Source: Schmidtea polychroa (taxonomy: Eukaryota). From it: a stretch of 64,000 nucleotides of DNA. The position numbers and the translations under genes are program-made. The stretch covers positions 140,306,001-140,370,000 of the forward strand of contig CM097885.1 of assembly GCA_044892525.1 (NCBI GenBank). The letters run 5' to 3'. The notes below the pieces were generated by a model. The model did not search any database. It worked only from the letters and a program-made list of their open reading frames with translations, and was not told the DNA's origin. This document shows, in pieces, positions 28,927-64,000 of the stretch. Positions within the stretch are counted from its first letter, which is position 1; each line of letters opens with the position of its first letter.

Positions 28927-29366
28927 TCAGGATCGTGGAGTGGCTGCAGGCTCTTTCAATTTTTCTTGCTCGGCCAGCCAGGCCCTTTTCAATTTGTCTC
29001 GGGCATTCCGCCCTAGCCGTTTACGTTTCGGCTTGCTTGTCTGGGCTGGTGGGTATATCTTGGCAAGCTCCACGGGAAGTGGGCGAATCTGCTCACAAAG
29101 AGTGTCATGGATGAACCTTTCGTTCAGTTTGCTCTCGAGCGAGCGCACTTGTATCTTCAGTGCTCAGATTTCGAGTTGGTCCTGCTCCGCCTGGGTCTGG
29201 AGTTGCGAGATGTGGGTTGTCCGTTTCTTCATCTCAGCCGGACTGAACCAAGTACCTTCGAGCTCCCGGCATTTGACCTTGAGCTTCTCGACCCTACTTC
29301 GAAGGTCTTCGGCTTGTTGCTGGGCCCGTTCGCGGTCCTTACGTAGGTTTTCGAGCAACTGGTACA
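28927..29366 (-). pseudogene. LEGTWFSPAxMK coiled-coil ORF (relative of 47419-48168) with one internal stop
   Basis: ELEGTWFSPAEMK vs ELEGTWFSPAQMK, and KPKRKRLGRNAR vs KPKRRQLSRAER. Begins at the splice acceptor ttttcattcag| (29367-29368). Confidence 0.7.
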
Positions 29367-39190: not shown

Positions 39191-40985
39191 TGTTGGGTGG
39201 CTTAGGGGTGTGTCATTTTAATTTTGAATGTGTTAGGGGTACTTATAGATGTTGAATCGAATCCTTCCTAAACGCCTTCATGACTATTGTCGTTATACCA
39301 TCTGTGTACCCATGGGGACAACCATGTTGGTGCTGTTCACAATGGCTGAAAATCCAAAAGCAGGTGAGCTCCATTGCTAAAACTACTCCTCATGATATTT
39401 TCATTTTGGGTTCTGGACTGCCGATAGAAGGTCTTACGTCATTGTTCATTATCAATCCTGTTTTTAGATTATTGTCATATATACATTTCATTGTGGACTT
39501 CATTTCTAGATGTTTGCTAATGTTACCTTCAAAAATTTGCTCAGGGATCCTCCTTTATTTTTCTGTTAATAAATGTTACTATGTGTTTTCCATAATATTT
39601 ATGAACATTTAACTTATCCTTCAAAACGTTTTGAGAAGGGATCTGCCCTTATTTCCAAGTTAATAAATGTTGTTCTATACTTTCTACAATATTCAAATTA
39701 TTCTTCAAAAATTGTAAGAAGGGATCTGCCTGTATTTCTAATCCTAACATATGTATATATCCACTAAAATATATCCATATCCACTAAAACTCTTACAGCG
39801 ACGGACCCGAAAAGAAGCCTCCACATTACGACTCGAAATCAGCTGTGTGGTTGAAAAAGCCAGTATACCCACCAGTCTCAGCATCCCGAAGGTACGCCAA
39901 ACCATGGTATGCTGAAGTTCCACTCCACTATATCTATTGTTCATTAACAAACATAAAAATTACAAACTAGAAATTAGCAATTAAAAAGAACCAAAAAAAA
40001 TAACTAGAACTAAAATTAATACAAAGATTTATTACCTTAAAACATTACATAAAAATTACAAATTATATAAAATTACGAAATCCAATTCAAACTTACCAAG
40101 AAGACATAAACCGAAGACTGAGAGCGTCACAAAATGTTTACACTGTCTGCAAACCAAGTTTGATTTCAAGTTGAAAACTAGTTGTTGTATGTTAACTGAA
40201 TTTTCAATCAGTATTTATACTGATTTTGACTGTGCATCCATGCATTCTCTGCCACTAGATCCAATCAGAATGCAGTAATTATATATTTTTAATTTAATTG
40301 ATTTAATTTTTATTAATTTCAACAATTTAATTTTATATATTTTATAATTTTAATAATTTTAGCTAATTTTATTTTAATTTTACTTAATTTTAACCATTTA
40401 ATTCTATCAACTTTATAATTTACATAATGTTAACTAATTTTATTTTATAATTTACATAATTTCAGCTAATTTTACTTTAACTTTTATTATTTTATCAGTT
40501 CTACTGGAAGTTCTTTAGTTTCAATTTTTAAATGTATTTATTTCTATATTTTATTTCATTTAATTTTTAAATAATTTTTTCCTGTTCCTTTTCTTAAAGT
40601 ATGCCCTCATTGTCAAAGCTCCTTAGTGTGTAAATACGAGCCATAACATCCCTAATTAATTCGATTATGGTGTTTTGATTGTAAATACGATCAACAATCC
40701 TTCTTAAAATTTATTTTCATATTATTAGTTAATTTATTATCAATTATTTTATTTTCTAGTTGGCAGGTTTTTTGAATGTGATATATCTCTTAACTGTGTT
40801 GGTGATTGTAACTTTATGCGTTTCCTGATTTTATTATACATGTTTTATTTATTCTCAATGTGTTATATACTTTATTTTGTATTATTTGGTGTATGATCAT
40901 GGATTTAAATTCAACTTAGTGCGGCTTTTATGTTATGTATTTTCGATTCATTAAAACAAACGCTCAACCCGGTTCTAGCCCAACG
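39191..40985 (-). mobile_element. Internally deleted long LTR copy (subfamily 1)
   Basis: Starts cGTTGGGCTAGAAC at 40985. CCAAT at 40261, TATAAATA at 40219-40212, donor cttg|gtaagt at 40096, structured motif 39796-39930, GCCGATAGAAGG at 39420. There is no ORF. The left end is tentative and no TSD was found. Confidence 0.6.
39796..39930 (-). ncRNA. Conserved structured cis-RNA candidate (motif 1)
   Basis: Homologous to 49877-50005 with compensatory stem changes and a cUUCGg loop. Confidence 0.55.
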
Positions 40986-46833: not shown

Positions 46834-47418
46834 TGTTACCCATACCCCGGTATTCCTCCCTCGTGTTGGCGGGCACTACTCGGTTGACCACCCTTAGTTC
46901 AACTTTCTAGTCTAGGGGATGAATGCCTGTTACAATTATATCTTTCATTACTGTGTCACCCCCGAGCAGGGCCCGTACATAATCTATACTCCAACATAGC
47001 ACCCGTGAATTGCTTCACGTTGGAACTGTGCTATGCCGGCGAGACGCCAGTAAGCAGGTGAGCCACCATCTTCGGACTACTCCTTACTGAGGCCTCGACT
47101 TCCTACCCCTGACTGCCGATAGAAGGACTTACGTCTGCTCATTCTGTCACCCTGTCGCCATACTCTTGATTTAGATTGCAACTGGGCCATACTCCTCGAA
47201 TCTCAAAACACTCAATGCCATTTACCACTCAATGTAAATTCCTTATGAACGAAAAAAACAAAACCCGTATACAGACAAAAATTGTTTATTTCAAACATTG
47301 TAATACAGGCGCGTCGTAACTTATACATCAGAATCAGAATAAGAGAACACAAAGACAGGAAATGATGTTAGTTGATTCAGGACTCTCCGAAGGATGAGGT
47401 CACTTCACGGGAAAATCC

Positions 47419-48168
47419 TCAATTTTCCCACTCGGAGTCGGCGAGTAACTCGTCCAAATCGAAGAATTCGGAGGCGTTTTCCTCCCACATCACTCCAGCG
47501 GCAGATACGATCCGCCCTGGTGTTCCTGTTGTTAGGTTAATTACAGCAGGGGCGTTATTGACATTACTACCGAGGTCAGGCAGTTGCTTGGACTGCTTTG
47601 CGGCTATCCGCTCACGCTGTTTCCTTTTACGTTCGGCCCTCGATAGCTGCCGACGCTTTGGTTTGTTGGTCGATGAATTGTTTGGGGCTACCGCCGATGT
47701 AGAGGCGACGTTAGGCAGTACCCGACTATTTCCAACAAAAACTACCTCTAGTTGCCCTGGCGAGAGTTGCGTTTCTACGCACGGCCGGCAAGGTTTTTTC
47801 GAAGGGGGCGATGATTTGGCCGAAGTATCATGGTGGGTCGGAAAGAGATTGTCGGCGTCACCGATGGGGAGTTTCACTATCTTCCTAGTTGCCGTAGCCT
47901 GGATGTACACTTTATGCAGCGCCTCGGACTGCTCCTTGATCAAACTTCTTTGGGCACGACTCTCGGAGATTAGAGCGTCCCGGCAATGTTCACTTCGGTG
48001 TAATTTCTTTTGGGTCTCTTTCATCTGGGCGGGACTAAACCATGTCCCCTCTAACTCGTCTATTTTCTTTTTGTACCGTCCGATCTGGGTCTGTAGGTCC
48101 TTGATTATTGCGTTCTTGTCGGAACAAGAAAAACAGGGCCTGAGGACGGATTTTGCATTGGGTAACAT
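47419..48168 (-). CDS. LTR-encoded 249-aa protein: CxxC, coiled coil, basic NLS-like segment, acidic/aromatic C-terminus
   Basis: Intact ORF preceded by the acceptor ctcttcttag and followed by AATAAA at ~47290. Homologues at 257, 26376 and 29366. Confidence 0.8.
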   Translation of the reverse strand: MLPNAKSVLRPCFSCSDKNAIIKDLQTQIGRYKKKIDELEGTWFSPAQMKETQKKLHRSEHCRDALISESRAQRSLIKEQSEALHKVYIQATATRKIVKLPIGDADNLFPTHHDTSAKSSPPSKKPCRPCVETQLSPGQLEVVFVGNSRVLPNVASTSAVAPNNSSTNKPKRRQLSRAERKRKQRERIAAKQSKQLPDLGSNVNNAPAVINLTTGTPGRIVSAAGVMWEENASEFFDLDELLADSEWEN

Positions 48169-49876
48169 GTCTGCTAGCTAAGAAGAGTAATAACACTAAA
48201 TGGGATAAATCAAGTTTAGAAAATCATCATCTTCCGCCACTATTCGTTAATCAGTATTAGACAGTTTTACCGGAAAAGAAAAACGGATTATTTATCAAGA
48301 GGGATTTCCTATGCCATCGACCTATGCGGGCTCTAGGTGTTTATTCACTAGAAAACCAACTGGCAACATAAGGCTTTACTTAACGAAGGTTGTACGTCAT
48401 TGTTAAAGAAAATGAAAATTGCATGTTTGAGAGGAATTATTGATGACGGAAATTTTCCTGAAGAGATAAATAGCATTGAAAATTCAACCCGAACTACATA
48501 ATCACTAAGTGAACATTTAGCTAATCATTATAATGATTTTATAGATAATTAGATAAGTTGGTTGTAATTTATTATTAATTGAAAATGTTAAATTTTAGCA
48601 GTTCCATTAATAGACGTGAACTAATTGAGTTGAATTTATTTGTATTTTGTTTAGGCTTTCGATTATATTGTCTATATTTTATTATAATTTGGTTTTCAAA
48701 TCTCACATTTATTTACTATTTTAACATAAATTATTGAGTTGTTGGTGACTCATGTTATCATCACTCATGTCTGGTGCTTTCGGTAAATAGCCGAGATTTT
48801 CATCTGACACACCCGGTGGATTTTTCTCAAGTTAGCCGTTCGTGGTGAATTATCTACTATCGGGTTAGATGACTATGCGATCTCAATAAATGTGTCACCT
48901 GGAAGATAGACTCGTAGAATTACGGCCAGTGATATCTGTGTTATTATTGGTGAGCACTAGCATGTGGACTTTGGTTATTAGAACTCGCCATGTGTGCATT
49001 TACACATGTGTGCGGGTACTCACTTCGTGAGACTCTTATCCTATTCGGCAGCTTGCATGAATCATCAGATGTTATATTATACTGTGTTGAATTTCTATCT
49101 CTCATGAAAATTTTGCATAGGAAGATTTTGCGTAACGTTGTTTCTGGATGGCATTCGTTTCGTAGACAAATTGGTCAACTATTCAAGCTATGGTTTCTAC
49201 TCCCCTCATGGATTTTATCATTGTCAACATGCCCATTATCTATATCGAGTTGGAAATTATTTAACTATCGCTGGAAATACAATTCGACGAAATGCGGAAA
49301 TTCTATCATCCTCTGTGACATTTCTAAGACTCGGATTTTTCTCCCATGGAGGGTTGGTCGGATCAGTTATCTCTCACCCTACCTTTGCATCAGTTGACAC
49401 AGACGTTTGGCATTCGATATATAAAGGAAGGACTTATTTAAGTGGTTTTGAAATATATTTTTCTTGATCAGATTCGTTATTATCTCATGGTTTATTATTT
49501 TTGAGAACTATTTGTTTTCCACAATCCACCACAAGTAGGGTTTAGAGGGACGTATCAAAATTGATTGCACGTGATAAACATAGCTGATAAAAATAGCAGT
49601 TATGAAAGTTGGTAGGTTGAAGGTTTCAGGAATAATTTCGAGAGGAATCACGAACGCAGAGGATATGCTACAAATGGTGCCCAGACTGATTTGACGGAAA
49701 GTCCTATATAGATCTTCAGATGGTAGTAACAATTTCAATTTGCTAAAGACGATAGTATGACGCCCTCAATCACCATGCGAACTCTCGAACGAGATTTTCC
49801 TCATATGACTACACTTCTCATTGCTTGATAGTTACCCTCTCTCTACAGTATCGTCCACATATTTTAGTCACATCTT

Positions 49877-50005
49877 CAGCGACGGACCCGTGAGGAAGCC
49901 CTCACATTACGGCCCGAATCAGCTGCGTGATTGAAAAACGCCATGTCCACCGGCTGAGCTCCCGAGGGCACCTCACACCATGACATGGAGTTTCTCAACG
50001 CCACG
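49877..50005 (-). ncRNA. Conserved structured cis-RNA candidate (motif 1) downstream of the LTR splice donor
   Basis: Stems ttgagaaac/gtttttcaa, ccatgtc/gacatgg, cagc/gctg, gggcc/ggtcc and gtgagg/cctcac. Most G-U pairs favour the minus strand. Confidence 0.55.
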
Positions 50006-50222
50006 TTTCTCGGAAATTTATAATCATTAAATAAATATGCATAAAAATCAATCAGAAAAAGTTCATAATAATTCATTTATTAAATAACTAAATCCTCTAA
50101 TTAGCAAATGTATCATTAGGAATCAAACGAAAGGACAACTGTTTTCAGTTTAAATTTATAATTATTTCATAAAATTACATGACTACTATTACTTAGATAA
50201 AGTATAAATCGAAAAATTCCTT

Positions 50223-50495
50223 ACCAAGTAATTTGTATAGATTTTTAGGCTGAGTCGGAAGGTATCGAATCGAATAAATGGTTACTCGAAATTTACGTCG
50301 ATTGTTAACTGTTTGATAATATCTCCTGGTTTCTAGATTGATTCTCGTACGTTGCTGCTGTTTACCTGTAAAGTTGGTTGTTTAACGGTAACTGTTAAAA
50401 TTTGTCTTACCTGTAAAGTTGGTTGTTTAACAGTAAGTTTATAATTTTTGTGTTTCCTTATATATTAATTTTTGATGTGTGCGGACCAATCAGAA
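50223..50495 (-). promoter_or_regulatory. LTR promoter (CCAAT 50486-50490, TATA-like ~50458-50466) and 5' splice donor (cttg|gtaagg at 50224)
   Basis: The same order, ccaatcagaa then TATA then cttg|gtaag, is conserved at 40261, 40215 and 40096. A 25-bp direct repeat at 50362-50386 / 50407-50431 contains further donor-like sites. Confidence 0.55.
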
Positions 50496-51099
50496 TTGAG
50501 TGCCGCTTAATTTTATTGCTTTAATTTATTTTTCTTGTTTTTGAGTTATTTTTTCCTATTTTCTTTATTTTTATTGTGTTTTTATTTATTTTCTTTAATT
50601 TCTTTATTATTTACTACATTTTACGTTATTTTTTTGTCATTCTATTGTCCTATTTTAATTTTCCTTATTTTTATATTTTTTTGTTTTAATTCCTATTTTC
50701 TAATTTTTTATTTTTCTTATATCCTATTCTATTTTATTCTTAAGTTTGTTTGTTTTTTTTTTATTTTAATTTAATTATGTTTAACCTAATTTCTTGGATA
50801 CCCTTCGACTCAGCCCAACAAATCACTCGGGGACCCGACAAAATTGCGTCCCACAATTACATACTTGAGCTACTCTTATTCTCTCATAAAAAGATAAACA
50901 CATTCATAAAAAGATAGCATAGTGATTAACAAAATTATAAACATCAATAGAACTTTATTAATAAGATATAGGTCAAATCAAGACCAAGCAGTCATCACTT
51001 ATGGTGATGGTTTATATACAAAGCAAAATTTTCACAATGTAATGTTTTAGTTCAGTTATGGTATTGTTCGATTATTCTGATGGTTTTGGTTGGAGTTTG

Positions 51100-51720
51100 T
51101 TACTGCGGTTGGGAATGGATATTATGGTAGGCTTGAAGACTGGATGATGGTTGAGGAGATGCTTTGTTGGCTAATCTGGGTGGGCTTGTGGTTTGGGTAG
51201 CATTGGTTATTTCGACTGGGTTTTGTACGGTGGCTCTAGATTTCGAGCTCTGACATTTTTTCTTAACTTCGAGGATTTTTAGGAAGGTTATGAGGCATAA
51301 TGAGATAGTTTCTGCGACCACTACGTAGAGAAGGTAATGGGTGTCGCTGTTATTGGAGGGTGTTTCTGTTGTCTCGGCAGGATTTTCGAACACTTCTTGT
51401 TGAATTTGTTGTTCCAACTGATCGAAGTGTTGGACTTGTTCGAGTATTTTCCGGTCTATCATTCGGCATACAGGGCTATTCTGGCATAAACGTCTGATGT
51501 TGTTAACATATGACCGAACCGATTGGATATTATGGAGGAGGTTGGTTTTTATTGTATTGGGGTATTTGCATTGGCAAGGGTCTGATTTGGCTTTTTGATT
51601 CCGATTGCGGTGGTCTCGTATGCTTGTTGGTTGGGAATTTAATGGTGGTTTCTCCATCAGGTGATTTATCAATACCATTACTGTTATTGTCATACCATAC
51701 CACATTGTACTAATATACAT
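51100..51720 (-). CDS. Accessory ORF: probable single-pass membrane protein
   Basis: Hydrophobic N-terminus, four Cys in the putative ectodomain, TM segment YLLYVVVAETISLCLITFL, and an S/T/P-rich tail. Confidence 0.6.
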   Translation of the reverse strand: MYISTMWYGMTITVMVLINHLMEKPPLNSQPTSIRDHRNRNQKAKSDPCQCKYPNTIKTNLLHNIQSVRSYVNNIRRLCQNSPVCRMIDRKILEQVQHFDQLEQQIQQEVFENPAETTETPSNNSDTHYLLYVVVAETISLCLITFLKILEVKKKCQSSKSRATVQNPVEITNATQTTSPPRLANKASPQPSSSLQAYHNIHSQPQ

Positions 51721-51759
51721 TTATTATTATTATATTATTTACACTGGCTTTAATTGCTT

Positions 51760-52470
51760 TTAGTTAAACGGTTCTGTTTTGGGATTATTTTCGGCGGTTC
51801 TCATCAGGGTAGACTCCGCTTTAATGACCCTGTGTCTCAACTCGGGCAGCATTTCCAACTGTCTGTCCTTTTCACGGGCCTCCCTTTTCATGTGTCTTAT
51901 CTCCTTCTCTAATCTTCTAATTTCTTCCCGTTTTTTATCGAGATTCCTTTTTAGTTCGATTTGCAGGAAATCTTGTTCGTTTTCTTGCGAAAGGTTTCGT
52001 TGTTGTTGTTGTTGCTTTCTCTCGATCTCTTGGTATTTGCGAATCCATTTCTTCATTTCCTCACTTTCTCGTTGTTTTTCCTCCAATTGTCGATTTAATT
52101 TATTTATAGTTATTTGGCGTTCTTTCGCCTCTGTTTTCCAGTAGTCCTGGATTACTTCTTCTGCTTTGAAGCTTGCTCTTTCTTCCCATAATTCTTCTGC
52201 GATCTTTTCCCAATTTCTCCCTCGCTTTCGTTGTTCTTGTAACCATTCATTTCTCTCTTCTACTTCTCTCTTTACTTCTCCTAGTACTTTGCACTCTTTC
52301 TTTAGTACTTTAATTATTTTCCGGTCTCCTATGTATTGGTTTATTAGTCTCTCGTTTTCCCGTCTCTCTTCCTGCAATTCTTTCTTTAGAGTTCGTGTTT
52401 CTGTGGTTTCTACTTCAATCTCTCCTTCTTCCGCTTCACTCATGAGTTCTATTATCTCCTCAATCTTCAT
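51760..52470 (-). CDS. Accessory ORF: E/K/R-rich coiled-coil protein (236 aa)
   Basis: Intact intronless ORF with heptad-like charged helices. Confidence 0.7.
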   Translation of the reverse strand: MKIEEIIELMSEAEEGEIEVETTETRTLKKELQEERRENERLINQYIGDRKIIKVLKKECKVLGEVKREVEERNEWLQEQRKRGRNWEKIAEELWEERASFKAEEVIQDYWKTEAKERQITINKLNRQLEEKQRESEEMKKWIRKYQEIERKQQQQQRNLSQENEQDFLQIELKRNLDKKREEIRRLEKEIRHMKREAREKDRQLEMLPELRHRVIKAESTLMRTAENNPKTEPFN

Positions 52471-52627
52471 ATCTATAATATTTATAATTAATCATGCGCT
52501 ACAGTGCGACTCATACTTATACATTCATATACAGTTTAGGAAATTAGGGTTACAGCCCCTCAAATACTTTTACAATACTTTTAATTTTTTTGTTTGGGAT
52601 ATAAGTCCCGAATTTTTTTTAAATTTT

Positions 52628-53701
52628 CTATCTTTTTATTCGCCTATATACGAAGGTTTCCTCTTGACCCACGTATCCCTCATCGCTCTCGACCGATGCC
52701 TGTAGCTGGATGGCAATGGGGTCATATGGTATGTAATATTGGGGAATTTGAGCTCTCAACTCGTGAACTTCATTTCGTAGTGCTCTAGTGATATTCAATT
52801 CTTCGTCGAGCAAATAGGTGAGGTATCTCGTCTCATCATCTTTGGCTTCTAATTGCCTATCTAACTCCTTTATCTTTTCCTCGCCCTTCCATTTCTCGAT
52901 CTCTATCTCTAGATTTTTGAGGTTTTCGGTATACATTTTCCGTTCGTTTTCCAGCTTCTTATTTTTTCCTGCCAGTACCATATTTCGTTGTTCTAGAGCT
53001 CCCTGATATCCATTGACATCTCGTTCCAGCGCCGTGACCTTATTTATTAGTTCCACGACTCGTCCTGAATGCTGGAGTATCATTTCTTCCATCGCTGCAT
53101 TCTCGTGCTCCTTGATGGAGATTTTCATAGCCAAATGTCTTTCAAACTCCATGGCCTTGGTCTGCCATGTTTGACTTCGGGCGGCAATCTTTCTCAGCCG
53201 TTTGAGTTCCTCTTTTATCACTAGGTTCTCTTCCCATTTGCCTTGTTCGCTTTCGTACTCTAATCTCATAGGCAATTCTTTCATTTCCTTTTTCATTTCT
53301 CTGTTCTGTCGCTTCCATTTCCGGGCTTCGGTCAATAGATGTCGCATCTTTTTCTCCTCTTTTTGTTTTTCGGTCTCTCGTTTTTTATTCTCATCAGTCA
53401 GTCTTTTCCGCGATTCTTGTAGTAGTTGTTTTAGATAGTGACTGTGCGATTCTTGTCGAGTGTTTTCTAACGAAGCCCATTGTGCGGCCCTTTTACATGT
53501 CTCCGCTTCCGTTCTTAAATTGTCTACCAGCCATTGGTATTTGTGAGTTTCGTACTCCCTGGCTTCCTCAATGTGATTTCGGGTGAGGTTAGCTAATTGG
53601 AACATCACCTTGTTCCATTTCTCACTATATTCTTTGGGGATTTGTGTCTTGTTGGTATTATTTGGGGCTATCGTAGTTCCGGTTGTTCTTTCTTGTGTCA
53701 T
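52628..53701 (-). CDS. Accessory ORF: coiled-coil protein (357 aa)
   Basis: Intact intronless ORF with long charged helices. Confidence 0.72.
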   Translation of the reverse strand: MTQERTTGTTIAPNNTNKTQIPKEYSEKWNKVMFQLANLTRNHIEEAREYETHKYQWLVDNLRTEAETCKRAAQWASLENTRQESHSHYLKQLLQESRKRLTDENKKRETEKQKEEKKMRHLLTEARKWKRQNREMKKEMKELPMRLEYESEQGKWEENLVIKEELKRLRKIAARSQTWQTKAMEFERHLAMKISIKEHENAAMEEMILQHSGRVVELINKVTALERDVNGYQGALEQRNMVLAGKNKKLENERKMYTENLKNLEIEIEKWKGEEKIKELDRQLEAKDDETRYLTYLLDEELNITRALRNEVHELRAQIPQYYIPYDPIAIQLQASVESDEGYVGQEETFVYRRIKR

Positions 53702-53897
53702 TTTCTAAATCATATATTCTGATTAAATATCATCGCAGTATTAGATTTTATTATTCAGTTGATGTTTTTTCCTGGATTTTTTCGCTTTAGTTTTGGGTTG
53801 TTGTATTTGCGGATCCCATACTACTATTATATATTATTTTATAGGTTATATACACCGATATATACAGATTTATTATATACAACGTTATTCGCACTGG

Positions 53898-54845
53898 CTA
53901 CTCGGTTCTGCTCTTTCCCTCCTTCCTCACTGTCATCTTGATATATACGGTATCATTTCTCGCCATATCCTCTATCTTTTGTTGTAAAATGAACGTAGGC
54001 GCTCCTGTTGCTGATCCTTCTTCGTCGAGGGGTCTCTGGTAAGCCATCTGATTCCCCGTTGTTTTGAAGCTTTGTTCATGTATACTTTGATTGTTCATTA
54101 TTACAATGTTGATTTTCGACTGAAACGGCCATTCTAATATTTCATCATACTCCCCTTTACATAACAGAAAAAATATCGAAAAGTGTGTGTCTAATCCGGT
54201 TCCGTCCCCGTTGGGATATATCTTCATTTTCATTTTGTATCCATTCTTCCATGAGAGGAATGCGGGACTGGTTATTCTAGTATCTTCTCCAATTTTTGCT
54301 TTTCGTATCTTTTCCTTCACTCCCGAAATTTTCCATATGTAAGGTGCGGTTGGTAGTATTTCATTGAGATTTATTTCGGTTATTTTTTGATCTAACACTT
54401 CGGCTTGCTCATTACTGATTTCCATTCGATTTATTTGCATTTTTATGTTGGCTCGAGCTTGTTCGAGAGCCTCTCTTTCTTCTAGTAGTTCTTTTACTAA
54501 TGCCTTCAGTGAGGTTATTTCTATCTCCAGTTGTTGCACTTTCTCTTCACTTTCTTGCAACGCAGTTGACCACATTTCTGCATGATTTATTACATTTTCT
54601 GTTAAATGGTGTGGTAAGTCTCCTCGGTGTAATAGTTTCTGACAGCCCCATTTACTTAGAACACATCTCATCCTTTTCTTTTCACATTCTTTTAGATGCT
54701 GGGCTAATTTTATTATTCCCCCTTCGTTGCATCCGTTCGGGCATTCGCCACAGAACTCTGCACATACCTTTTCCTCTTGGACATTGTGATGTTTGATGGT
54801 GAGATTTCCTTTGCATCGTACGCCCTTGCTCCTGCATATTAGATA
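53898..54845 (-). CDS. TRAF-like protein: TRAF-type zinc fingers, coiled coil and MATH (TRAF-C) domain
   Basis: YIWKISG...SPAF...GYKMKMKIYPNGDGTG..THFSIFFLLCKGEYDEILEWPF is a TRAF-C signature. The frame stays open upstream of Met 54671 to 54845 and includes CPNGC...LAQHLKEC...C...GC...HHL. No introns. Confidence 0.9.
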   Translation of the reverse strand, partial: YLICRSKGVRCKGNLTIKHHNVQEEKVCAEFCGECPNGCNEGGIIKLAQHLKECEKKRMRCVLSKWGCQKLLHRGDLPHHLTENVINHAEMWSTALQESEEKVQQLEIEITSLKALVKELLEEREALEQARANIKMQINRMEISNEQAEVLDQKITEINLNEILPTAPYIWKISGVKEKIRKAKIGEDTRITSPAFLSWKNGYKMKMKIYPNGDGTGLDTHFSIFFLLCKGEYDEILEWPFQSKINIVIMNNQSIHEQSFKTTGNQMAYQRPLDEEGSATGAPTFILQQKIEDMARNDTVYIKMTVRKEGKSRTE

Positions 54846-55094
54846 CTACTTGTGCTAGTCCAGCGCATTGTTGTTTCCACATATCCTCGGTCGTTGTATT
54901 GCGATTTATTTCGTTATTTCCTTGCTCCATTCTTAATTTTTTATACATTCTCAATCTTTTTCTTATTTAATTTTATATTGTTTATTTCTCCCGATCGTTA
55001 TATATTATTAATACCGCGCTTATATACGAATATAATACTGTTATATACATAAGATATACTTACTTTTTACAATTATATACAGTCATAACCCTTT

Positions 55095-55469
55095 TTATAT
55101 TTGTGGATTTGGAGGGCACTGCATATTCCAGGCCTCCATCCACTGTTCTTGGCTCATTTTACTGGGCCTTTTTACTTGATGTTGAAAATTCCTGGCTCTG
55201 ATCATTTCGAGTTTGTTACGCTGCTGTTTATCTCGGATTATTTTTATCGTCCCCCCCGTTATAGTTATGAACGCTCCGGTTATTATTATTCCGCTGATCC
55301 ATATCATCTGCTTCACACTGATGATCTCTGAGTTTCCATTGTTTGTTATTGTACTCGCTGTTTCTGCATTTCCCTCTTTCTCTGTTTGGCTTTTTCCTTT
55401 CTCCAACCATCGTATTCTTGTTATTTCCTCATTGATCCCTTCTTTTGCCATTTTTTGTATTTTTTCCAT
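55095..55469 (-). CDS. TM plus cytoplasmic segment; probably the frameshifted end of the polyprotein
   Basis: MIWISGIIITGAFITITGGTI hydrophobic helix. The frame is open back to ~55505 and overlaps the end of the 55421-60124 ORF. Confidence 0.55.
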   Translation of the reverse strand: MEKIQKMAKEGINEEITRIRWLEKGKSQTEKEGNAETASTITNNGNSEIISVKQMIWISGIIITGAFITITGGTIKIIRDKQQRNKLEMIRARNFQHQVKRPSKMSQEQWMEAWNMQCPPNPQI

Positions 55470-58400
55470 TTCCTCTTCTGATACGTAGTTATCTTGGTTA
55501 TATCATTGGTCTTCTGACGTTTTCCTTCTTCATCTTCTTCGTCATTGATCTTTCTTTTCTTTCCTCTTTTCCCAGGATATCGTCGACATTCCTTTTCTGG
55601 TCTTTTTCTCACGATACAGACCGTGTATTCCTTTGGCGGTTGTTGTTGTGTTACATATTGTAGACAGTCTTCTCCTGGTCCTAACCTTGAAATACAAACT
55701 TTGTGTTCTTTCCTTGGTTGGAGTTGTGTTATCACTACTTCACCTCCTTTACCCAGGTGCACCTCTTTCCATTTGACTTTCGTTATTCTCTTTCCGTTTC
55801 GATGTTGGTATGCCTCTTGTATTCCCACTTCCGTTATCGGTTCTGTGTCCTCGTTCATCAATACTAATCTCCGATATGCTCTAGACATGCATCTTCCCAG
55901 TATACATCTTTCCTTTAGATCCCATTCCTCCTTCAGATCCCATTGTTGTTCTTGCATTTGCTTTTTCTTTTCTTGCTTTAATTCCTCCTCTTTGTTATCG
56001 TGATTTTCCGCTTCTTTGGTCTCTTTTATCGTTCTCGTCCCTCCATGAGCTGTTACTAACTCTATCATGGTTAGTACAATTATCATTAGTATCATATTTG
56101 TTTCCATTTCTTTGTTGGTGAAGGGTAGGCATACCCTCTGTTTTCCATTATTTGGTTTTTCCTCCTCTTTCGTCTTGTTTCCCGGGTTGTTTCCTTCTTT
56201 TCCCGTACCTGGGTCTTTATTTTCCGGGTTATCCTCTTCCGGTTTTCTTTTCTCTTTGTCCTCCTTTCGACCTCTTTCGTCATTATCATCGTATTTATCT
56301 CCCCCGCTGTCGTTTAAAATGTCGTCCTCGACATTTATATCGTTTAATAGTCTTCGGTATGCTGTTAGTACTCTATTTCTTGCTAATTTAGCTTCAAATT
56401 CAAACTCTTTTCTCCCGGTTGCTGCGTGTCTCTTCCGGTTCCATTCCTTTACTAGTTCTCTCAATTGGATCCGGCGGTGTTTTCCAATTCGTTGTTGTTC
56501 GTTTTGATTTTTCGTGAATCTCAGGTCTTCTCTATTCAATACAATTAATATGATTTTAGGTGTCTCCCCTTTAGTTAATGTATTTTTGACCATTGCGTTT
56601 TCGCCGTTCTCATAAAATTCGTTTACGTTTATCGCATATTTATTACTTTGTGGCACTCTCCATGTCAACAATAATTTCATTGCTTCTAGATTTTTTCGTA
56701 CCGTATTCCACTGGAATTGAGATGTGTTTTTGCAGATATTTTCGACTTCTTCCTTTGTCGCGTTTTTGCAGATGAATCTGATCATTTCTAGGTTTGGCTG
56801 AATGGTTGCCCAATCCATTGTGGAATTTCCTTCGCTTGACTTTTCGTCTAATCTCGATCCTGATTGATGTAGTATATGTAATGTTTTTGGGTGTATTTTC
56901 GTTATAGCTGCATACATCATGGCGGTTTCGCCTTGTTCGTTTTTCGTGTTGGTTTCCTCTCCCAGATCTCTGAGAACTCTTATGATTGTAATTGCTCGGT
57001 TTTCTTTTGCTGCCAATATTGCTTGTTGTAACGGTGTTCTTTGATCCTTGTTCGACATGGTAAATGCTCGTGGCATGAAAGTTTTGATTTTCCCGATATC
57101 TAAATCCGTTGTCTGATCTCTTGCGTATGTATGTACGGTCTTTATTATTTTCGACAATATCATTTCATCTGATAACTCTAGCATTTCTTCAAAGAATACT
57201 TCTTTTGCTTTACGTATTATTGTTCCTTGATCTGAATTCATCGGTTTTGTTTTGATGACGTTATTTGCTGTAGTTTGGTTCGTTGGCGACTTTGATTCTT
57301 TTGACGTCCCCTTCTTTATTTTTATTTTCTTTCCGGTTGGATTATTGATTCGTTCTTCTGCTGTAAGTACTTGAATAATATCCAAGTAATTCTCGCGAAT
57401 GTTGTTCATTGTGTCCATCATATATAACACACTTCCCGTTTCCCAATATTTATTTCGTACTTGGTTAGTGAATTGAAATATTGATTTTTCGAATGTGTCA
57501 ATTCGCTTTTTTAATAACTGCTCATCTTTATGATTTGTGAATTTTATCCCTCGTTCTACTAATTGGTTTGGGATTTCGAATAATTGATGTCCTTTCATGG
57601 CTTCTCTCATAAGCGTGTTCTCTCCTCTCGTGAATGCTTCGTTTACGTCAATCATGAAATCATTTTTAATTGGATTTCTCCATGTAATTAATATTCCGGA
57701 AATTGTTGTTAGTTTCTCTTTGATTGCCGTTAATAATCCGTCATACATGTTTCCGACTTCTCGATTATCCTCGTATGCTAGTAGTTCCATCAACGTCGTG
57801 AACGCTTCGGTACTTTTCCCTTCGATTGCATGATGTAGTGCGTTTTTCTGATTGCGATCTTGTGTGGTTATTTTTGATCCTGTGTCGAGTAATGCGATTA
57901 TAATGTCTTTTGTTTTGCCTCTGTTTGCTGCTATCATTAGTGGTGTGTAGCCTTGGTTATTTTCTTGTTCTGTTGATCTCTTGCAGTCGTGAAATGCTTC
58001 TATTGTTTCTAGTATTTGTTCGTTGTTACCCACTTTCATGAGTTTATGTAATGGTGTGTCTCCATAATGATCTGTTACGGTAAATAATATTGGCCATTGA
58101 CTTTTAACTACTCGTAGCAGTGGATGTGTCCTCTCTCGGTTTGCGTAATTTTCGATCATAGTTAATAGACCTCCTAATATTTCGAAGTCTAGTCTGTCTT
58201 TTGCCCATCCGGGTATCTTAATTTTTACCTCCTTTACAATCTTTTCCGCTTCTGATGGTTGGATACCCAATCGTCCAGTCGTTGGTTCTGCGAGCTGTTG
58301 CATCATGTTCATTCTGTAAGTTTGAGAACGTGTGGTTAACGTACGACCTTCTGGTTGACTGGTGGCTGTTTTTGGGATCGGTTTACATCGTGCTACATTT

Positions 58401-60215
58401 ACGTATATTGGACTGGTGAACGGATTATTTACTAATTTCACTCTTACGTTAGTTTCACCCACAAATAAGATCTCATATGGCCCTTTTCCGTTCCGCTGTA
58501 ATTTTTTCGTGGTTCCCGGAATCAATTCTGGTGTTTCTATCATTACCCAATCACCTGTTTGAAAGGTATGTTGCTTCACGTTTTTCTTTCGATCGTGTAA
58601 ATCTTTATAACTTTCCCGGTAGAACTTGATATTTAATCCCGCAGTTTCCCAAATCTCTTGCATTCTCTCCTTGAATTTTGTGACATAATCGTCTATCTCC
58701 ATATATTGCGATATCGGTGGTTGATATTCCAGGTCCATTGGCATGTTACATTCTCTCCCGTACATTAATTTGAATGGGCTCATTTTCGTTGATGCATGAA
58801 TTGACATTCTATAAGCCATAAGACATAGATTTATGTATTCGTCCCAATCTCGTTGGTGATGGTCGACGTAATTTGATAGCATTTGTATAAGTGTTCCGTT
58901 AAATCTTTCTGTCATCCCGTTGGTTTGAGGATGATACGGTGATGTTCTCAACTTTGAGATTTTGAAGTAATTGGTTACCTCGCTCATTATCTCACTCATG
59001 AAATTGGTGCCCTGATCTGTTAGTATTTGTTTCGGCGTTCTATATCGGCAACATATCTCTTCTACTAAGATTTTTGCGATTGTTTTAGCTTTTTGATCTG
59101 GCATAGCGAATGCCTCTGGGAATTTCGTGAGGTAATCCGTAATTACCAAAATATAAACATTTCCTTTATCCGATTCGGGTAATGGACCAATTACGTCCAT
59201 AGATATCATCGTCATCGGTTCTATTGGTACTGGCATTGGCGTTAAAGGTGCTTTCCATTTTGATCCAGTATTCCTTCTGGTCGCACAAGTTAGACAATTT
59301 TTCACCCATTCGGTTACGTCTTCAGTTAACGTAGGCCAAAAATATTTCTGTTTCATTCTTGCCAGCGTCTTTTTCGATGACATATGTCCTCCCAATCTTC
59401 CATCGTGATATTGCGTTAATAACTCTTTCCGTCGGTTTTCCGGTATACACATTAATCGTTTCTCTCCATCCATTATCAGCAACCAATCTTTCTCTATAAC
59501 GTATCGATGTCGGTGTTTATCCATATGTTCCTTTAATTTCTGGTCTTTCTCGTACACTTCGGTTTTTCCCGTTTTTACATAATCGATAATTTGTTTTAAT
59601 TCTGCATCTTCCTGTTGGTCCTTTCGCAATTGGCAAAAATCCAAGTCTTCCGCTACTATCAAGCATATGCGTTGCATTTCTGAATCTACCAAATCCGGAA
59701 AAATGAATCTCGACATACAATCGGCGTTGGCATTTGCTCTTCCTGCTTTGAATTTTATAAATGGAGAGTATTCTTGTAATTGCATGGCCCATCTCATTAG
59801 TCTACTTGATGCTTCTTTATGTTGCCCTAACCACACTAATGGTTGATGATCTGTGGTTATGCATATCTCGTGCCCCCATAGTAAATATCGGAAGTGTTTG
59901 ATGGCTTGTATTATAGCCAATGCTTCTCTTTCTGTTACTGAATAGTTCTTCTCGTGCTTTTTGAATGTTTGACTGTAATAACCGATTACTCTCTCTTTTC
60001 CCTCGTCATCCAGTTGTCCTAAAATCGCTCCTGCTGCATATCCGCTTGCGTCTGTTGCTAATAAGAACGGTTTCTTGAAATCAGGATGTACGAGGATTGG
60101 TGCTTCAATCAATTTATCTCTCAACGTTTCGAATGCCTCCTGTTGTTCTTTTCCCCAAATAAATGAGATATCTTTCTTTACCAGTTCTTGGATTGGTTTT
60201 GCGATTCCTGCATAA
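55421..60215 (-). CDS. Pol C-terminal part: RNase H, integrase (to ~58380), two ankyrin modules, signal-peptide-like segment, FN3-like domain
   Basis: LATDASGYAAGAIL, ITTDHQPL, HDGRLGGH...CLTC, ISMDVIGPL, LTDQGTNF, TSPYHPQTNGMTER. Ankyrins GDTPLH, GYTPLMIAA, RTPLQQA, GETAMMYAA. Tail METNMILMIIVLTMIELVTA and VITQLQPRKEHKVC. Confidence 0.93.
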
Positions 60216-63200
60216 TTTTTTTATGAATTTTCGGTAATACCCACATAATCCTAGGAACTCTTGCACTTGCGTAACGGTTTTTGGTGCTGGACACGTTTTT
60301 ATTTTTTCGATGTTTCGTGGATCTGGTTCTTTTCCTTTGGCTGACACTATGTGTCCCAAAAACGTGACTTTTTCCTTTGCCCAATCGCATTTTGAAGGTT
60401 TGAGCTTGAGTTTCCATTGTCGTAATCGAATAAATACATTTCGGATATCCTCCAGATGTTGTTCAAATGTCGCTGAATAGATTAGCAAATCATCAATATA
60501 TACCATACATTGTTTGATTCCATGAGTGACAAAGTTCATACACCTTTGAAATGATGTTGGTGCGTTGGTCAGTCCGAATGGCATTTTTCTGAATTGATAT
60601 AGATCTCGTCCCAACGTGAAAGCGGTCTTCTCTTTGTCCTCATCTTTGACTTTAATTTGCCAGTATCCATTTTTTAAATCTAAAGAAGTAAAATATGCTG
60701 CCCCTTGCAACATGAGTAACATTTCATTAATGTCTGGCAATGGATAGGTATCCCTCTTTGTTACTGCATTTAATTTTCGATAATCAATACAGAATCTTTG
60801 CGTGCCATCTTTCTTTTTCACCATGACCACTGGAAACTGCCAAGGTGAGCAACTTGGTTCGATTACTTTTGCGTCTAGCATTTTCTGCACTTCTGCTTCG
60901 GCTATTTCCTTTTGCATCTCTGCTAGTTTGTATGGTCTTAATGCGATTGGAGTTTCATCTATCAGTGGGATTGCATGTAGGGTGACATCACATGTACCCA
61001 AATCCAAATCTGAGATGGCGAATATATCTTTATATTCCACTAACAATCGGTGCAATTTTCTCTTTTCGGCAGCTGTTAACAATGTACTGTCGATTGTCCA
61101 TAATTCGTCATTTTTGTTTACCTCGTTGGTCACTTTTGGTAGTTCTATATCCATCATTGGAGTCAATTTTCCCAATCTTTCATTCTCATAGATGATTTTG
61201 TCTTCCTCTTCGAAATTCGTGATGTTGATCGGTATCACTCCTTCTTGATTTATTGTTATTATTTCTCTAGCGAGCGGTAATTCTCGTCGCTTTTCAAATG
61301 ACTTACTTGGTTCGAAAATAACTTCTCCTTCCATTCCCGTGTCTACTTTTATCTGACAGATCATCTGTGATTTTGCTGGTACTATTATTTTCTCTGGACA
61401 TCGGATTACTGCATTCATTTTGCATATTCTGCCGGTTTTATCCTTTAGACACATGGTTGTCAAGTCGATTACTACTTCTTTTAGTAGTTCTGGCATTAAA
61501 TCTGTTCCGATTATGCATGGTACACTCAGTTTTGGTATTACTGCTAAATACGTTTCGATTTCGTTATCTTGGTATTTTAAGGTGGTCCACCATCTCCCGA
61601 CCACGTCTACTGTTTCTTTACTGCATGCTATGATGTGGATTGTTGTTGACTCGATATCTTTCCAATATCTACTGGGAATTTGATTAATTGCTATTGCTGA
61701 TACGTTAGCTCCGGTGTCTATCATAGCATTTGTTTCTTTTCCATTGATTTGGATCATGACTGTTACTGCCGGACCTCCAGGTAAACTCATTGCTGCTATT
61801 GTCCGTACATCGTCCGCTTGATCTACACTTCTGGTTCTCCTCGTTGGCATATAATTCATTCCAGATTGATTTGGTAATTGCGGATACATATTTTGTGTCA
61901 TATTCATTGGTGCTACTTGTTGTCCGACAATATCTGGTGGTATATAGCTTCCATTGGCTATCCACGTATTTGTTTTTTCCTTTTCCCAATATGGTGCCGT
62001 TTCAATTTGCTTTTCCTTGGGATGTCCACTGGGGTACGGATATTTATTGTTTCCTTCGTCGTCGTCGTCACTATCGCTGTTAGATGATTGACTTCTGAAT
62101 CGGTCCAAGAATTTTGGCTTGTTCTTTTTCAATTGTCTTCTTGTTGCTTCATCGTACATGGTTTTTCGGAATTGTCTACCTACTTCCTCGTCTGTTCCTT
62201 TAATCTTTGTTAAGATTTTAATCAATCGCTTTATTCGATGAATGTCTTTTGAGTGACCATGTAATACCATGGTTTTTGCTAAAAATGGTAGAAACCCTAC
62301 TATCATTTTCCAATTTACTTTCTTTTCTCTCTTGTATATATCGAAACATGCTAACATTTGTGTTAATATTACTCTGACAATTTGAATTATGAGTATGATT
62401 CCCAATATTCCTGCCATCATTTGTCCAAATACTAAGAATCTTCCCCACATTGCTTTCATCATATTTGACGTTGCGTGCTGGAAATGATCCGGTGATAGTA
62501 GTAGTTCGTAATTTGGACCTGATTGATAGTTTGTTCCCCCAGTTATGGTGACCATATTTGACAATATTGACTCACGTCTGGCTGGGAAAAGTATGTTTAG
62601 CCGTGCGGTTTCTAGATCCGCTGGTGAATACATACCTCCGTTTGATACGTCTATGGGCTTGAAGTCCTGCTCCGTGGCGAGTTCTATTAATCCAAACTTC
62701 TTAGGTTCCTCCACTGTGGCCCTTACCGGTAACATTATCCATTTCCCATCGGGTCTCTCGTACAATGGTCCGTACGCATTGGAACAGTTAAAGAGATTTG
62801 GATAGAAGCCTAATGGGTTCATAATTCTAGTAACTGGCTGGACGAATCGATTTTGTCCTTTATAACGAATTTCCAACTCGTTTGCGCATTTCCCTGTAGG
62901 TATTGTGGGTTTTTCTGGCATTCGTGCAAACGTCTTAGTGCACGCATACGTATACATCACTTCGCCCACCATCCTACCAAAATGTCCATCTGGTAATGGG
63001 AGTGATGGCATCGTATTATCAGGGTGCGTTATTGCGATAGCTAGTTTTGTTTTCAGTATCTCTTTATTTAATGAACAATCGTTTTGTATAAGATCGTAGT
63101 ATACTTTTTGCAGTGTCGTTTGTCCGCGATGGAATAAAAAATCCATTTTGTTGTTGGCGTATAGGTACAATTTGACGTCCTCCGTGGCTATCTTTCCCAC

Positions 63201-64000
63201 TGCTCTATCTATTATCTGTCTTGACATGTAGATCCCTGCGTAGTTGGTCTTGTAGACGATACTATCGCATTTGGTGGTCTCCTTTTCTCTGATGAATCTC
63301 ATACCCAGGTCTGGGTCGTCTGTGATCAGTGCCGTTGGTGTTTTTTGTGTTGCGAGCCTCTTTTCCCTGGGCGCGGGTGGTACTGGTTTCCCATTTCGCA
63401 TTCTCACCTTTCCATTTCCATCCTCGTCATCTTCGTTCTCATAAATTTCCCCTTTTACTTCATTGAACAGGGCACTTTTTAACAATTGGAGTCGGCATTT
63501 TTGGGTGTTAGCTTCATATATTATGGTCGAAACCCCCGTCTTGCATACGTTTTCCGTAGCCTTACATATGGGGTTGGTTTTCATTTGATAATTATTGGCG
63601 TCAAATTGTGCTTCGTATTCTTTTAATTCCACTGTATAGGACTCGATTACTACTACCCCCGATATCGCCTCTCCTCTGATCGTATACGTACCTCCGTTAC
63701 ATGTACCATCAGTTGATTTTACGCGTCCGGCTACATAAATGCTTTCGGTTTTAATCATTCCGCTTTGCCCGTGTATCGTTACTCCGTCTCGGATCCTCAT
63801 CGCTCCGGTTCTAAACAGTTCTTTGCAATCCTCTCTTTGTATAGGCACTATTTCTTTATCCAATCCGGGTAGTATGAGAGTTGAATATGAATATTGTCCA
63901 CAGTAATACGCCAACACACGTTTTGATACTACGCACTCCTTTGCCAGCGTCCTGATGAAATCCGATTCTTGATACACGTGATATGAGACCTTTTTGTTCA
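60216..64000 (-). CDS. Polyprotein N-terminal part (5'-incomplete): chuvirus-like class III glycoprotein, TM, aspartic protease, spacer, RT
   Basis: The frame is open to the window edge (NKKVSYHVYQESD...). Glycoprotein Cys pattern: YYCGQYS, DGTCNGG, NDCSLNKEILKTKLAIA, GEVMYTYAC, CANELEI...FVQPVTRI...C...GKW. TM MAGILGIILIIQIV; protease [47 protein letters not shown]. A 1-nt excess in an A7 run (60216-60222) shifts the frame. Confidence 0.9.

What the first reader, a model, noticed from the sequence alone, without database searches (positions are those of the whole stretch)
46834..50820. A ~4 kb LTR that is itself a complete spliced transcription unit
Within the terminal repeat, on one strand and in order: CCAAT/TATA, a 5' splice donor (50224), a structured RNA, an acceptor just before the ATG (48168), an intact 249-aa ORF, AATAAA (~47290) and the terminus. 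All three other copies of the ORF (442, 26376, 29366) also have an acceptor at their start, and the donor is conserved at 40096. If correct, R spans about 3 kb and every solo LTR is a portable gene. The nearest precedents are MMTV sag in U3 and HIV nef overlapping the 3' LTR; this architecture is unusual for Ty3/gypsy. It should be compared with the giant planarian Burro elements, which may be the same or a related family.
Basis: partly seen in the sequence, partly recalled or inferred. Interest (0 to 1): 0.85.

Follow-up and report, generated by a model that had tools for sequence, protein, structure and literature searches.

The report
Gene inside giant retroelement's terminal repeats
Each 4-kb end repeat of a giant virus-like jumping element in what is likely a flatworm genome carries its own strongly conserved protein gene with promoter, splice and end signals; the gene is likely read from a spliced RNA and likely helps the element control its own copying, but no RNA data could confirm this.

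Summary
Window 50820-46864 is a true 3,957-bp LTR: partner LTR 25 kb upstream (99.7% identical), 4-bp target duplication, tRNA-Pro primer site. It belongs to a Burro-like gag-env-pol element. The 249-aa ORF is under purifying selection (dN/dS 0.09 between subfamilies), has no known family, and is open in 27 of 31 solo LTRs of a sample biased towards intact copies. Promoter, donors, acceptor and poly(A) signal are conserved in two clades, and the predicted 5' exons nearly lack ATG (10 against 439). This is likely a fossil of the start site, of splicing and of the minus-strand jump. 'R about 3 kb' is doubtful: a second conserved AATAAA (50081), also present in ORF-less relatives, favours R near 0.4 kb with the gene in a 3.2-kb U5 (0.6 against 0.33). 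No transcript was seen. A Rev-like role is my best guess (0.4). The element type is known; two key Burro papers could not be read and may already note the ORF. The scan's notes held nothing on this LTR gene.

The parts
46864..50820 (-). 3' LTR, 3,957 bp, TGTTGG...CCAACA
   Evidence: Partner LTR at G000:C1:140377846-140384252, 12 differences; 4-bp target duplication CGAG
50781..50816 (-). Start of U3, complementary to the segment before donor 2
   Evidence: Duplex mean -31.1 kcal/mol against -10.5 for random sites; covaries in clade 2
50484..50493 (-). Inverted CCAAT box
   Evidence: Conserved in clade 1, clade 2 and ORF-less LTRs
50458..50464 (-). TATA box
   Evidence: CCAAT+TATA anchor found in 56 of 64 clade-1 LTRs and 12 of 12 clade-2 LTRs
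50411..50436 (-). X1: predicted first exon; predicted start site about 50434
   Evidence: Begins 29-32 nt after the TATA box in most copies and ends at AG|GTAAG; start site inferred
50366..50410 (-). Predicted 45-nt mini-intron; its last 26 nt (X2, 50391-50366) repeat X1
   Evidence: X1 and X2 98% alike within a copy, 72% between copies; 20 of 23 distinct X2 end in YAG, 23 of 23 have a branch-point-like YTRA 16-18 nt upstream
50225..50365 (-). Predicted exon 2, ATG-free; 50266-50248 pairs with the U3 start
   Evidence: 10 ATG against 439 behind the donor in 53 LTRs
50219..50226 (-).
   Evidence: Found at the expected place in 53 of 61 LTRs of both clades
50076..50081 (-). Proximal AATAAA, candidate 3' end of the genomic RNA (R/U5 border near 50055)
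   Evidence: 38 of 53 against 9.4 expected from shuffles; 30 of 30; 11 of 12 ORF-less LTRs; use inferred
49874..50011 (-). Conserved two-domain structured RNA inside the large intron (packaging signal or response element)
   Evidence: z -3.6; 11 of 51 pairs with changes on both sides in 25 copies; no Rfam family
48178..48195 (-). Splice acceptor, 9 nt before the ATG
   Evidence: 56 of 60 clade-1 copies; YAG directly before ATG in 16 of 20 clade-2 loci
47419..48168 (-). 249-aa ORF: CxxC, long helices (predicted dimer), linker, basic helix, acidic-hydrophobic tail
   Evidence: dN/dS 0.09; model; dimer prediction; no Pfam family over cut-off
47285..47290 (-). Distal AATAAA with U-rich downstream stretch, predicted end of the LTR-gene mRNA
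   Evidence: 58 of 60 clade-1 copies; AATATA/AATACA variants in clade 2
47127..47133 (-). Donor 3 (C|GTAAGT), 153 nt behind the distal AATAAA
   Evidence: GTAAG in 53 of the 53 clade-1 copies where the site was located, of 60
50821..50836 (-). Conserved non-purine-rich motif where a polypurine tract is expected
   Evidence: Same motif before all 3' and shared LTRs of clade 1 and a close variant in clade 2
50821..64000 (-). Internal region in the window: env-PR-RT, IN-ankyrin, MATH/TRAF and other accessory ORFs
   Evidence: Pfam hits; gag, RING ORF, primer site and 5' LTR lie beyond the window
39191..40985 (-).
   Evidence: Multi-copy family, no ORF hit in 16 of 16 loci

Best explanation
The 3,957-bp LTR of this Burro-like element carries a conserved 249-aa gene that is likely expressed from the LTR's own promoter as a spliced mRNA, likely lies in an unusually long U5 behind a short R, and likely encodes a Rev-like regulator of the element's unspliced RNA. 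Steps: (1, shown) both ends carry the repeat, and solo LTRs keep the ORF. (2, inferred, 0.9) Transcription starts near 50434. (3, inferred, 0.8) The 45-nt cap-proximal intron is spliced from the 5' end of the genomic RNA, so the minus-strand strong-stop DNA (about 3.5 kb) ends in exon X1 and lands on the look-alike X2 of the unspliced 3' LTR; this rewrites X2 from X1 and restores the intron in each cycle. (4, inferred, 0.85) Splicing from 50224 to 48178 and ending near 47265 gives the LTR-gene mRNA, which lacks the structured RNA and the primer site. (5, inferred, 0.6) The genomic RNA keeps the large intron and ends in the 3' LTR at the proximal AATAAA (R about 375 nt), which U1 bound at donor 2 would silence in the 5' LTR, as in foamy viruses. 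(6, inferred, 0.4) The dimeric, basic protein binds the structured RNA and promotes read-through or export of intron-keeping RNA.
For: LTR pair, target duplication, 18/18 match of the primer site to a host tRNA-Pro once CCA is added. dN/dS 0.09, and 0.04 in residues 1-110. Acceptor kept in 56 of 60 clade-1 copies and directly before the ATG in 16 of 20 clade-2 loci, whose upstream sequence differs. ATG 10 against 439. X1/X2: 98% against 72%, own X1 best match in 43 of 46; 11 of 12 clade-2 LTRs have 21-22 of 22 identical letters with different X sequences; the left edge of X2 varies by 1-5 nt among near-identical copies while its flanks are constant. Proximal AATAAA counts. Two independent deletions, each in both LTRs of one element, remove donor 2 and this signal and end 17 and 20 nt behind it; one is exactly GT...AG. 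RNA covariation. Gag has its own acceptor and a 673-nt ATG-free leader. Dimer score 0.55, best control 0.00. Distant relatives carry arginine-rich motifs, one scoring Pfam REV 19.1 bits, under the cut-off of 22.
Against: The proximal hexamer is missing from the 50-150 nt window in 15 of 53 LTRs (AATGAA in one subfamily), while the distal one is in 58 of 60 clade-1 copies. Folding does not predict that U3 pairing hides donor 2 (17 of 27, mean difference 0.025). No intron-less copy was found by two tight patterns. The exact GT...AG deletion also has 3-nt microhomology. Copies are related, so counts are not independent. An ORF-less LTR family has the same RNA element, so the RNA does not need this protein in cis. 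The protein matches no known family or fold. Direct-repeat template switching by reverse transcriptase could also homogenise X1 and X2.
Confidence: 0.6

Rival explanations
1. Same LTR gene, but the genomic RNA also ends at the distal site near 47265, so R is about 3.2 kb and contains the whole gene.
For: Distal AATAAA/ATTAAA in 58 of 60 clade-1 copies with a U-rich downstream stretch; donor 3 lies 153 nt behind it, the HIV-1-like place for U1 silencing (PMC3694450 Background); proximal hexamer not canonical in 15 of 53.
Against: Clade 2 has canonical proximal and mostly variant distal hexamers; ORF-less LTRs keep the proximal one in 11 of 12; two deletions end at the predicted proximal cut site; out-of-register chimeras and one triple X unit are easier with short homology.
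Confidence: 0.33
2. The LTR protein is a transcriptional activator (Tat/Tas-like) rather than an RNA export factor: zinc-bound dimer, basic nucleic-acid-binding or import helix, acidic activation tail.
For: Invariant CxxC and His/Cys residues, basic helix 177-194 and a conserved acidic-hydrophobic tail in both clades; likeness of the tail to acidic activation domains is recalled, not tested.
Against: No family or fold match; the element depends on both spliced and unspliced RNAs, which fits an RNA-level regulator as well.
Confidence: 0.3
3. The protein acts on the host (silencing suppressor or cell-survival cargo) and its place in the LTR only raises its dose.
For: The element carries other host-directed cargo (MATH/TRAF, RING, ankyrin); Burro1 is reported, second-hand, to protect stem cells through an IAP region (PMC13465017 passages); solo LTRs with open ORFs are many.
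Against: Strong purifying selection with no sign of fast change in the conserved blocks; no host-derived domain detected.
Confidence: 0.25
4. The ORF lies in U3, as MMTV sag does; the genomic RNA starts at a second promoter near 47330 and R is a few tens of bases.
For: A TATAAA-like word precedes the distal AATAAA in 28 of 60 copies.
Against: It is absent in 32 of 60; the strand-transfer scar sits at X2, 3 kb upstream.
Confidence: 0.06
5. The signals are chance words in AT-rich DNA and the ORF is a passively carried fragment.
For: No transcript was seen; the DNA is about 65-70% AT.
Against: dN/dS 0.09; ATG depletion 44-fold; acceptors kept while the intron middle is unalignable between subfamilies.
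Confidence: 0.02

Closest known systems
Burro / GYPSM1 giant gypsy-like elements of planarians (PMC6431247, section 7 read whole)
   Same: About 29 kb without the insertion; gag with zinc knuckle, mononegavirus-type env in frame between gag and protease, ankyrin, MATH/TRAF and RING cargo; very many copies.
   Different: That section names no LTR gene, transcript map or R/U5 layout (its figure was not visible). MATH lies here in a separate ORF after integrase; no BIR or BCL2 hit. Sequence identity to Burro1-4 could not be tested. Grohme 2018 and Lee 2026 were not held.
Prototype foamy virus LTR (PMC3694450: abstract, Background, one Results section)
   Same: Major donor inside R, upstream of AATAAA (+168 to +173, R of 193 nt); U1 silences the 5' site. 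The proximal signal here has the same order and similar spacing.
   Different: There U3 bases next to R refold the donor; here the far end of U3 pairs beside the donor and occlusion is not predicted. No gene in U5 and no duplicated first exon are described there.
MMTV sag and HIV nef (PMC11998498 passages call Sag LTR-encoded; U3 position recalled)
   Same: A protein gene carried in the LTR and under selection.
   Different: Those lie upstream of the main start site (recalled). This ORF lies 2.3 kb downstream of the LTR's TATA box with its own acceptor and poly(A) signal, so a solo LTR holds the whole unit.
Rev/Rex/Rem regulators with their response elements (Rem in PMC11998498 passages; the rest recalled)
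   Same: Small protein from a fully spliced RNA, oligomer-forming helix, basic motif, structured RNA in the removed intron.
   Different: No sequence or fold homology shown; binding and export untested; a retrotransposon host.
BEL/Pao LTRs with captured host fragments in the same genome (scan notes, unchecked)
   Same: Coding sequence inside an LTR.
   Different: There host pieces are said to run into gag; here a stand-alone gene with no host match ends inside the LTR.

Membership tests
LTR retrotransposon (Ty3/gypsy type) | Two direct terminal repeats TG...CA with a target duplication | tested here: met
   99.7% identical, CGAG on both sides; second element likewise (ATTC)
LTR retrotransposon (Ty3/gypsy type) | tRNA primer site after the 5' LTR | tested here: met
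   18/18 to host tRNA-Pro(TGG) plus CCA, 7 nt from the LTR end
LTR retrotransposon (Ty3/gypsy type) | Polypurine tract before the 3' LTR | tested here: not met
   A conserved mixed motif stands there instead
LTR retrotransposon (Ty3/gypsy type) | PR-RT-IN order | tested here: met
   Pfam RVP, RVT_1, then Integrase_H2C2/rve; RNase H not scored separately
Burro | Size near 30 kb | tested here: met
   31.4 kb with, 28.9 kb without a 2.45-kb insertion
Burro | env in frame between gag and pol | tested here: met
   One 2,943-aa frame with Retrotrans_gag, zf-CCHC, Monjiviricetes_fusion, RVP, RVT_1
Burro | MATH/TRAF, ankyrin, RING cargo | tested here: met
   positions differ from Burro1 as described in PMC6431247
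Burro | BIR and BCL2-like motifs | tested here: inconclusive
   No Pfam hit in the frames scanned; remote-profile search not run
Burro | Sequence identity to Burro1-4 / GYPSM1 | not testable with these tools
   No reference sequence available
MMTV sag-type U3 gene | ORF upstream of the start site, in U3 | tested here: not met
   Conserved CCAAT/TATA and the transfer scar lie 2.3 kb upstream of the ATG; start site inferred, not mapped
Foamy-type poly(A) switch | Donor upstream of AATAAA inside R | tested here: met
   38 of 53, 30 of 30, 11 of 12; sequence arrangement only
Foamy-type poly(A) switch | U3-dependent fold hides the donor at the 3' LTR | tested here: not met
   17 of 27, mean difference 0.025 by predicted folding
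Rev/Rex/Rem-like regulator | Homology to a known family | tested here: not met
   0 of 35 members reach any Pfam cut-off; one of 16 distant relatives 19.1 bits on REV, cut-off 22
Rev/Rex/Rem-like regulator | Basic motif and self-association | tested here: inconclusive
   Basic helix conserved; dimer predicted, 0.55 against 0.00
Rev/Rex/Rem-like regulator | Binds a response element and exports unspliced RNA | not testable with these tools
   Needs experiments

The most novel reading that the evidence does not exclude
A gypsy-type element whose LTR is mostly a 3.2-kb U5 holding a complete regulatory gene upstream of the primer site, copied as a 3.5-kb strong-stop DNA, with a first intron that is spliced out of the genome RNA and rebuilt at every strand transfer; hundreds to thousands of solo LTRs would then supply a Rev-like regulator in trans, a complex-retrovirus control circuit that arose independently in flatworms.
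Probability: 0.25. Interest if true: 0.9.

Novelty: new variant of a known kind. Interest (0 to 1): 0.72.

Why it matters
It would move the limits of what an LTR is: a gene downstream of the start site and upstream of the primer site, and strong-stop DNA about ten times the usual length (usual range recalled). The X1/X2 pair gives a readable record of start site, splicing and strand transfer in plain genomic DNA. Burro elements are abundant and reported to be expressed and functional in planarian cells, so an LTR-borne regulator in solo LTRs is directly testable by RNA sequencing and RNAi in a model animal.

Tried and rejected
RNA evidence: the run search listed 12 runs, no RNA holder on record. 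Four runs (X1, X2, X3, X7; contigs only) were laid on 46500-55500; none of the 15 joints shown was 50225-48177, 47 more were not shown, and depth cannot rank parts. This is no evidence either way. Intron-less genomic copies: two gap patterns gave 4 hits (control 0) and 2 hits (control 1); by their matched letters none is a spliced copy; the loci were not opened. Idea that one clade-2 subfamily had lost donor 2 and the proximal signal and switched to a long R: rejected, 30 of 30 loci read (of 58 hits) keep them. Idea that U3 pairing hides donor 2: not supported. Reading TGTA words before the distal AATAAA as CFIm sites: dropped, as PMC5068929 passages report no UGUA enrichment in planarians. 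A 61-nt duplication in L049 over the proximal signal is explained by 7-nt microhomology. Ribozyme or known RNA family: no Rfam match under E 1. Protein: word-index search 0 of 613 candidates; Atlas best 0.82; Foldseek no match, on a model of pTM 0.27. The search for the 29366-type subfamily was not completed. Papers not held: Grohme 2018 and Lee 2026; their text and supplements may bear on novelty.
Full report
1. What is there. The window is G000:C1:140306001-140370000. The minus strand holds a large retroelement. Laying the next 20 kb beside the window shows the region 50820-46864 again 25 kb upstream, in two pieces of 99.8% and 99.5% identity split by a 2.45-kb insertion, with 12 differences in all. 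Both repeats run TGTTGG...CCAACA and the element is flanked by CGAG on both sides; a second element elsewhere has the same plan and its own 4-bp duplication. The LTR is therefore 3,957 bp and ends at 46864. Seven bases after the upstream repeat lies an 18-nt match to the 3' end of a host tRNA-Pro(TGG) plus CCA, which fixes the direction. No polypurine tract precedes the 3' LTR. The interior has gag with a zinc knuckle, a mononegavirus-type fusion protein, protease and RT in one frame, then integrase with ankyrins, a MATH/TRAF ORF and a RING ORF. This fits the Burro elements of planarians (PMC6431247, section 7 read whole). The host is inferred to be a planarian.

2. The ORF is a real gene. The protein search of the genome scored 150 of 6,976 candidates, all matching. 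I fetched 60 of these 150, chosen by hand across 70-94% identity. Of the 60, 31 are solo LTRs with a 4-bp duplication, 4 are 5' LTRs, 4 are 3' LTRs, 2 are shared and 19 were not resolved; 27 of the 31 solo LTRs have an open frame of 245 codons or more. The sample is biased towards intact copies, two loci share flanks, and two duplications lie in microsatellites. Among 54 open frames (the window's and 53 of the 60), dN/dS is 0.09 for distant pairs (dS near saturation), 0.18 for middle and 0.43 for close pairs, and 0.04 in residues 1-110 (pairs are not independent). A second clade of 33-39% identity (20 loci fetched of 150 hits) has the ORF at the same place in LTRs of about 4.1-4.2 kb.

3. Transcript signals. 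Subfamilies align over the first ~960 bases and from the acceptor to the end, but not in between. A pyrimidine tract with YAG lies within 16 nt of the ATG in 56 of 60 clade-1 copies; in clade 2 YAG stands directly before the ATG in 16 of 20 loci and within 3 nt in 2 more. In 53 of 61 LTRs where TATA box and donor 2 were placed, the stretch from the predicted start to donor 2 holds 10 ATG in 11,294 nt, against 439 in equal lengths behind the donor. The distal AATAAA or ATTAAA is in 58 of 60 clade-1 copies; clade 2 mostly has AATATA or AATACA, which PMC5068929 (passages) lists as enriched planarian variants. Gag has its own acceptor followed by 673 ATG-free bases, in both full elements. The RNA at 50011-49874 folds better than 200 of 200 shuffles; in 25 copies (of 39 distinct) 97.8% of cells pair, 11 of 51 pairs change on both sides, and the covariation score is 0.20 against 0.12 shuffled and at most 0.06 slid; Rfam has no match.

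4. A 24-26-nt unit X1 starts about 30 nt after the TATA box and ends at a donor (50410). A copy, X2, follows 45-51 nt later. Of 64 clade-1 LTRs examined, 56 had the anchor and 46 the pair; X1 and X2 are 98% alike within a copy, X1 units 72% alike between copies, and the own X1 is the best match in 43 of 46. In clade 2, 11 of 12 pairs share 21-22 of 22 letters. X2 looks like a 3' splice site: 20 of 23 distinct units end in YAG and 23 of 23 have YTRA 16-18 nt upstream (branch-point reading recalled). In two subfamilies of near-identical copies only the 1-5 bases at the left edge of X2 vary. One subfamily's exact X motif gave 79 hits in 43 LTRs: 34 double, 8 single, 1 triple. My reading (inferred): the genomic RNA starts at X1 and loses the mini-intron, so the strong-stop DNA ends in X1 and lands on X2 of the 3' LTR, overwriting it and leaving a scar. 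Template switching between the repeats is a rival, but would not explain borders at the start site and the donor.

5. Where R ends. A second AATAAA lies 50-150 nt behind donor 2 in 38 of 53 LTRs (9.4 expected from base shuffles), in 30 of 30 loci read of one clade-2 subfamily, and 140-198 nt after the TATA box in 11 of 12 ORF-less relatives where the box was found, of 16 loci. Two single elements lack donor 2 and this signal in both LTRs; the deletions end 17 and 20 nt behind it, one is exactly GT...AG but with microhomology, and the other occurs nowhere else in the genome. The order donor-then-signal is that of foamy viruses, where U1 silences the 5' site (PMC3694450: abstract, Background and one Results section). 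The first ~35 bases of U3 are complementary to the segment just before donor 2 (mean -31.1 against -10.5 kcal/mol) and covary in clade 2 (own -26.8, cross -17.7; own best of 27 in 5 of 8), though within clade 1 the own partner is best in only 4 of 47. Folding does not predict that this hides the donor (17 of 27), so it may instead circularise the genome. Against a short R: 15 of 53 lack the canonical proximal word in that window, the distal signal is nearly universal in clade 1, and a third donor lies 153 nt behind it. Either way the strong-stop DNA would be about 3.5 kb and the genomic RNA must pass the distal signal in the 5' LTR.

6. The protein. No Pfam family reaches its cut-off in 35 members. 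A profile search found 16 proteins at E 0.001 or better; 13 of the 16 join the region to unrelated host domains, and the 10 looked up are unnamed single records, most likely wrong gene models. Several carry arginine-rich motifs; one scores 19.1 bits on Pfam REV (cut-off 22). The model (pLDDT 62.5, pTM 0.27) has helices at 15-39, 46-98, 177-194 and 238-243. Residues 5-112 are predicted to pair as a parallel dimer: score 0.55, best of 3 controls 0.00, runs agreeing in at least 87% of contacts, pLDDT 80; the mark was reached by 21 of 30 solved pairs and 0 of 23 single chains of microbes, and by 7 of 16 animal pairs. I rank Rev-like 0.4, activator 0.3, host-directed 0.25.

7. Known or new. The element type is known. 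An LTR gene, its splicing or the X1/X2 pair appears in none of the texts I saw: PMC6431247 (section 7 and passages), PMC8532177, PMC11410931, PMC13524379, PMC13465017, PMC11998498 (passages only). Searches listed no such report (listings only). Grohme 2018 and Lee 2026, the two main Burro papers, were not held, and figures are not visible, so the ORF may already be annotated. The scan's notes hold a Burro note and BEL/Pao LTRs with host fragments in this genome, but nothing on this gene. No transcript was observed. Verdict: real, a new variant of a known kind, interest 0.72.

Noticed in passing
window 50821-50836: No polypurine tract before the 3' LTR; a fixed mixed motif stands there in both clades. 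How the plus strand is primed is open; the U3-start pairing lies right beside it.
   Followed up: partly
L031:8986-10000 and L032:1-1433 (beyond the window): The 5' LTR has a 2.45-kb insertion inside its ORF copy, with a poly(T) end and a long (TTA)n tract, probably a non-LTR element in the opposite direction.
   Followed up: partly
window 39191-40985; L203-L217: An older family of ~1.8-kb LTRs keeps promoter, donor, proximal AATAAA, RNA element and U5 end but has no ORF and no X1/X2 pair; L216 has a 4-bp target duplication.
   Followed up: partly
window 29692-30192 and 11169-11645: A second small ORF family (166 and 158 aa, shared W/Y-rich block, no Pfam hit); one copy lies just upstream of the distant ORF relative at 29366, so some related LTRs may hold two genes.
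   Followed up: no
L038, L050, L053, L110, L116, L132: Chimeric LTRs in which the X unit of one subfamily follows 7-17 nt behind the last X unit of another; likely misplaced strand transfers.
   Followed up: partly
L058, L071; G000:C4:69.86-69.91 Mb; G000:C1:145.06-145.16 Mb: LTRs shared between tandem elements, and arrays of 3-4 ORF copies spaced 26-33 kb apart.
   Followed up: no
L099; G000:C1:130.90-130.95 Mb: Tandem array of tRNA-Pro(TGG) genes with a 475-bp period; the 21-nt tRNA motif occurs 1,580 times in the genome.
   Followed up: no
P0001-P0016: Distant relatives of the LTR protein appear in public proteins fused to many unrelated host domains, most likely gene-model errors that took the LTR exon from introns; real exonisation is not excluded.
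   Followed up: partly
window 33965-36235: An intact 756-aa ORF without Pfam hit that looks like a DNA transposase (impression, untested).
   Followed up: no
L152-L171: Clade-2 LTRs carry a different structured region and a further donor-like site about 1,040-1,150 nt from the LTR start.
   Followed up: no
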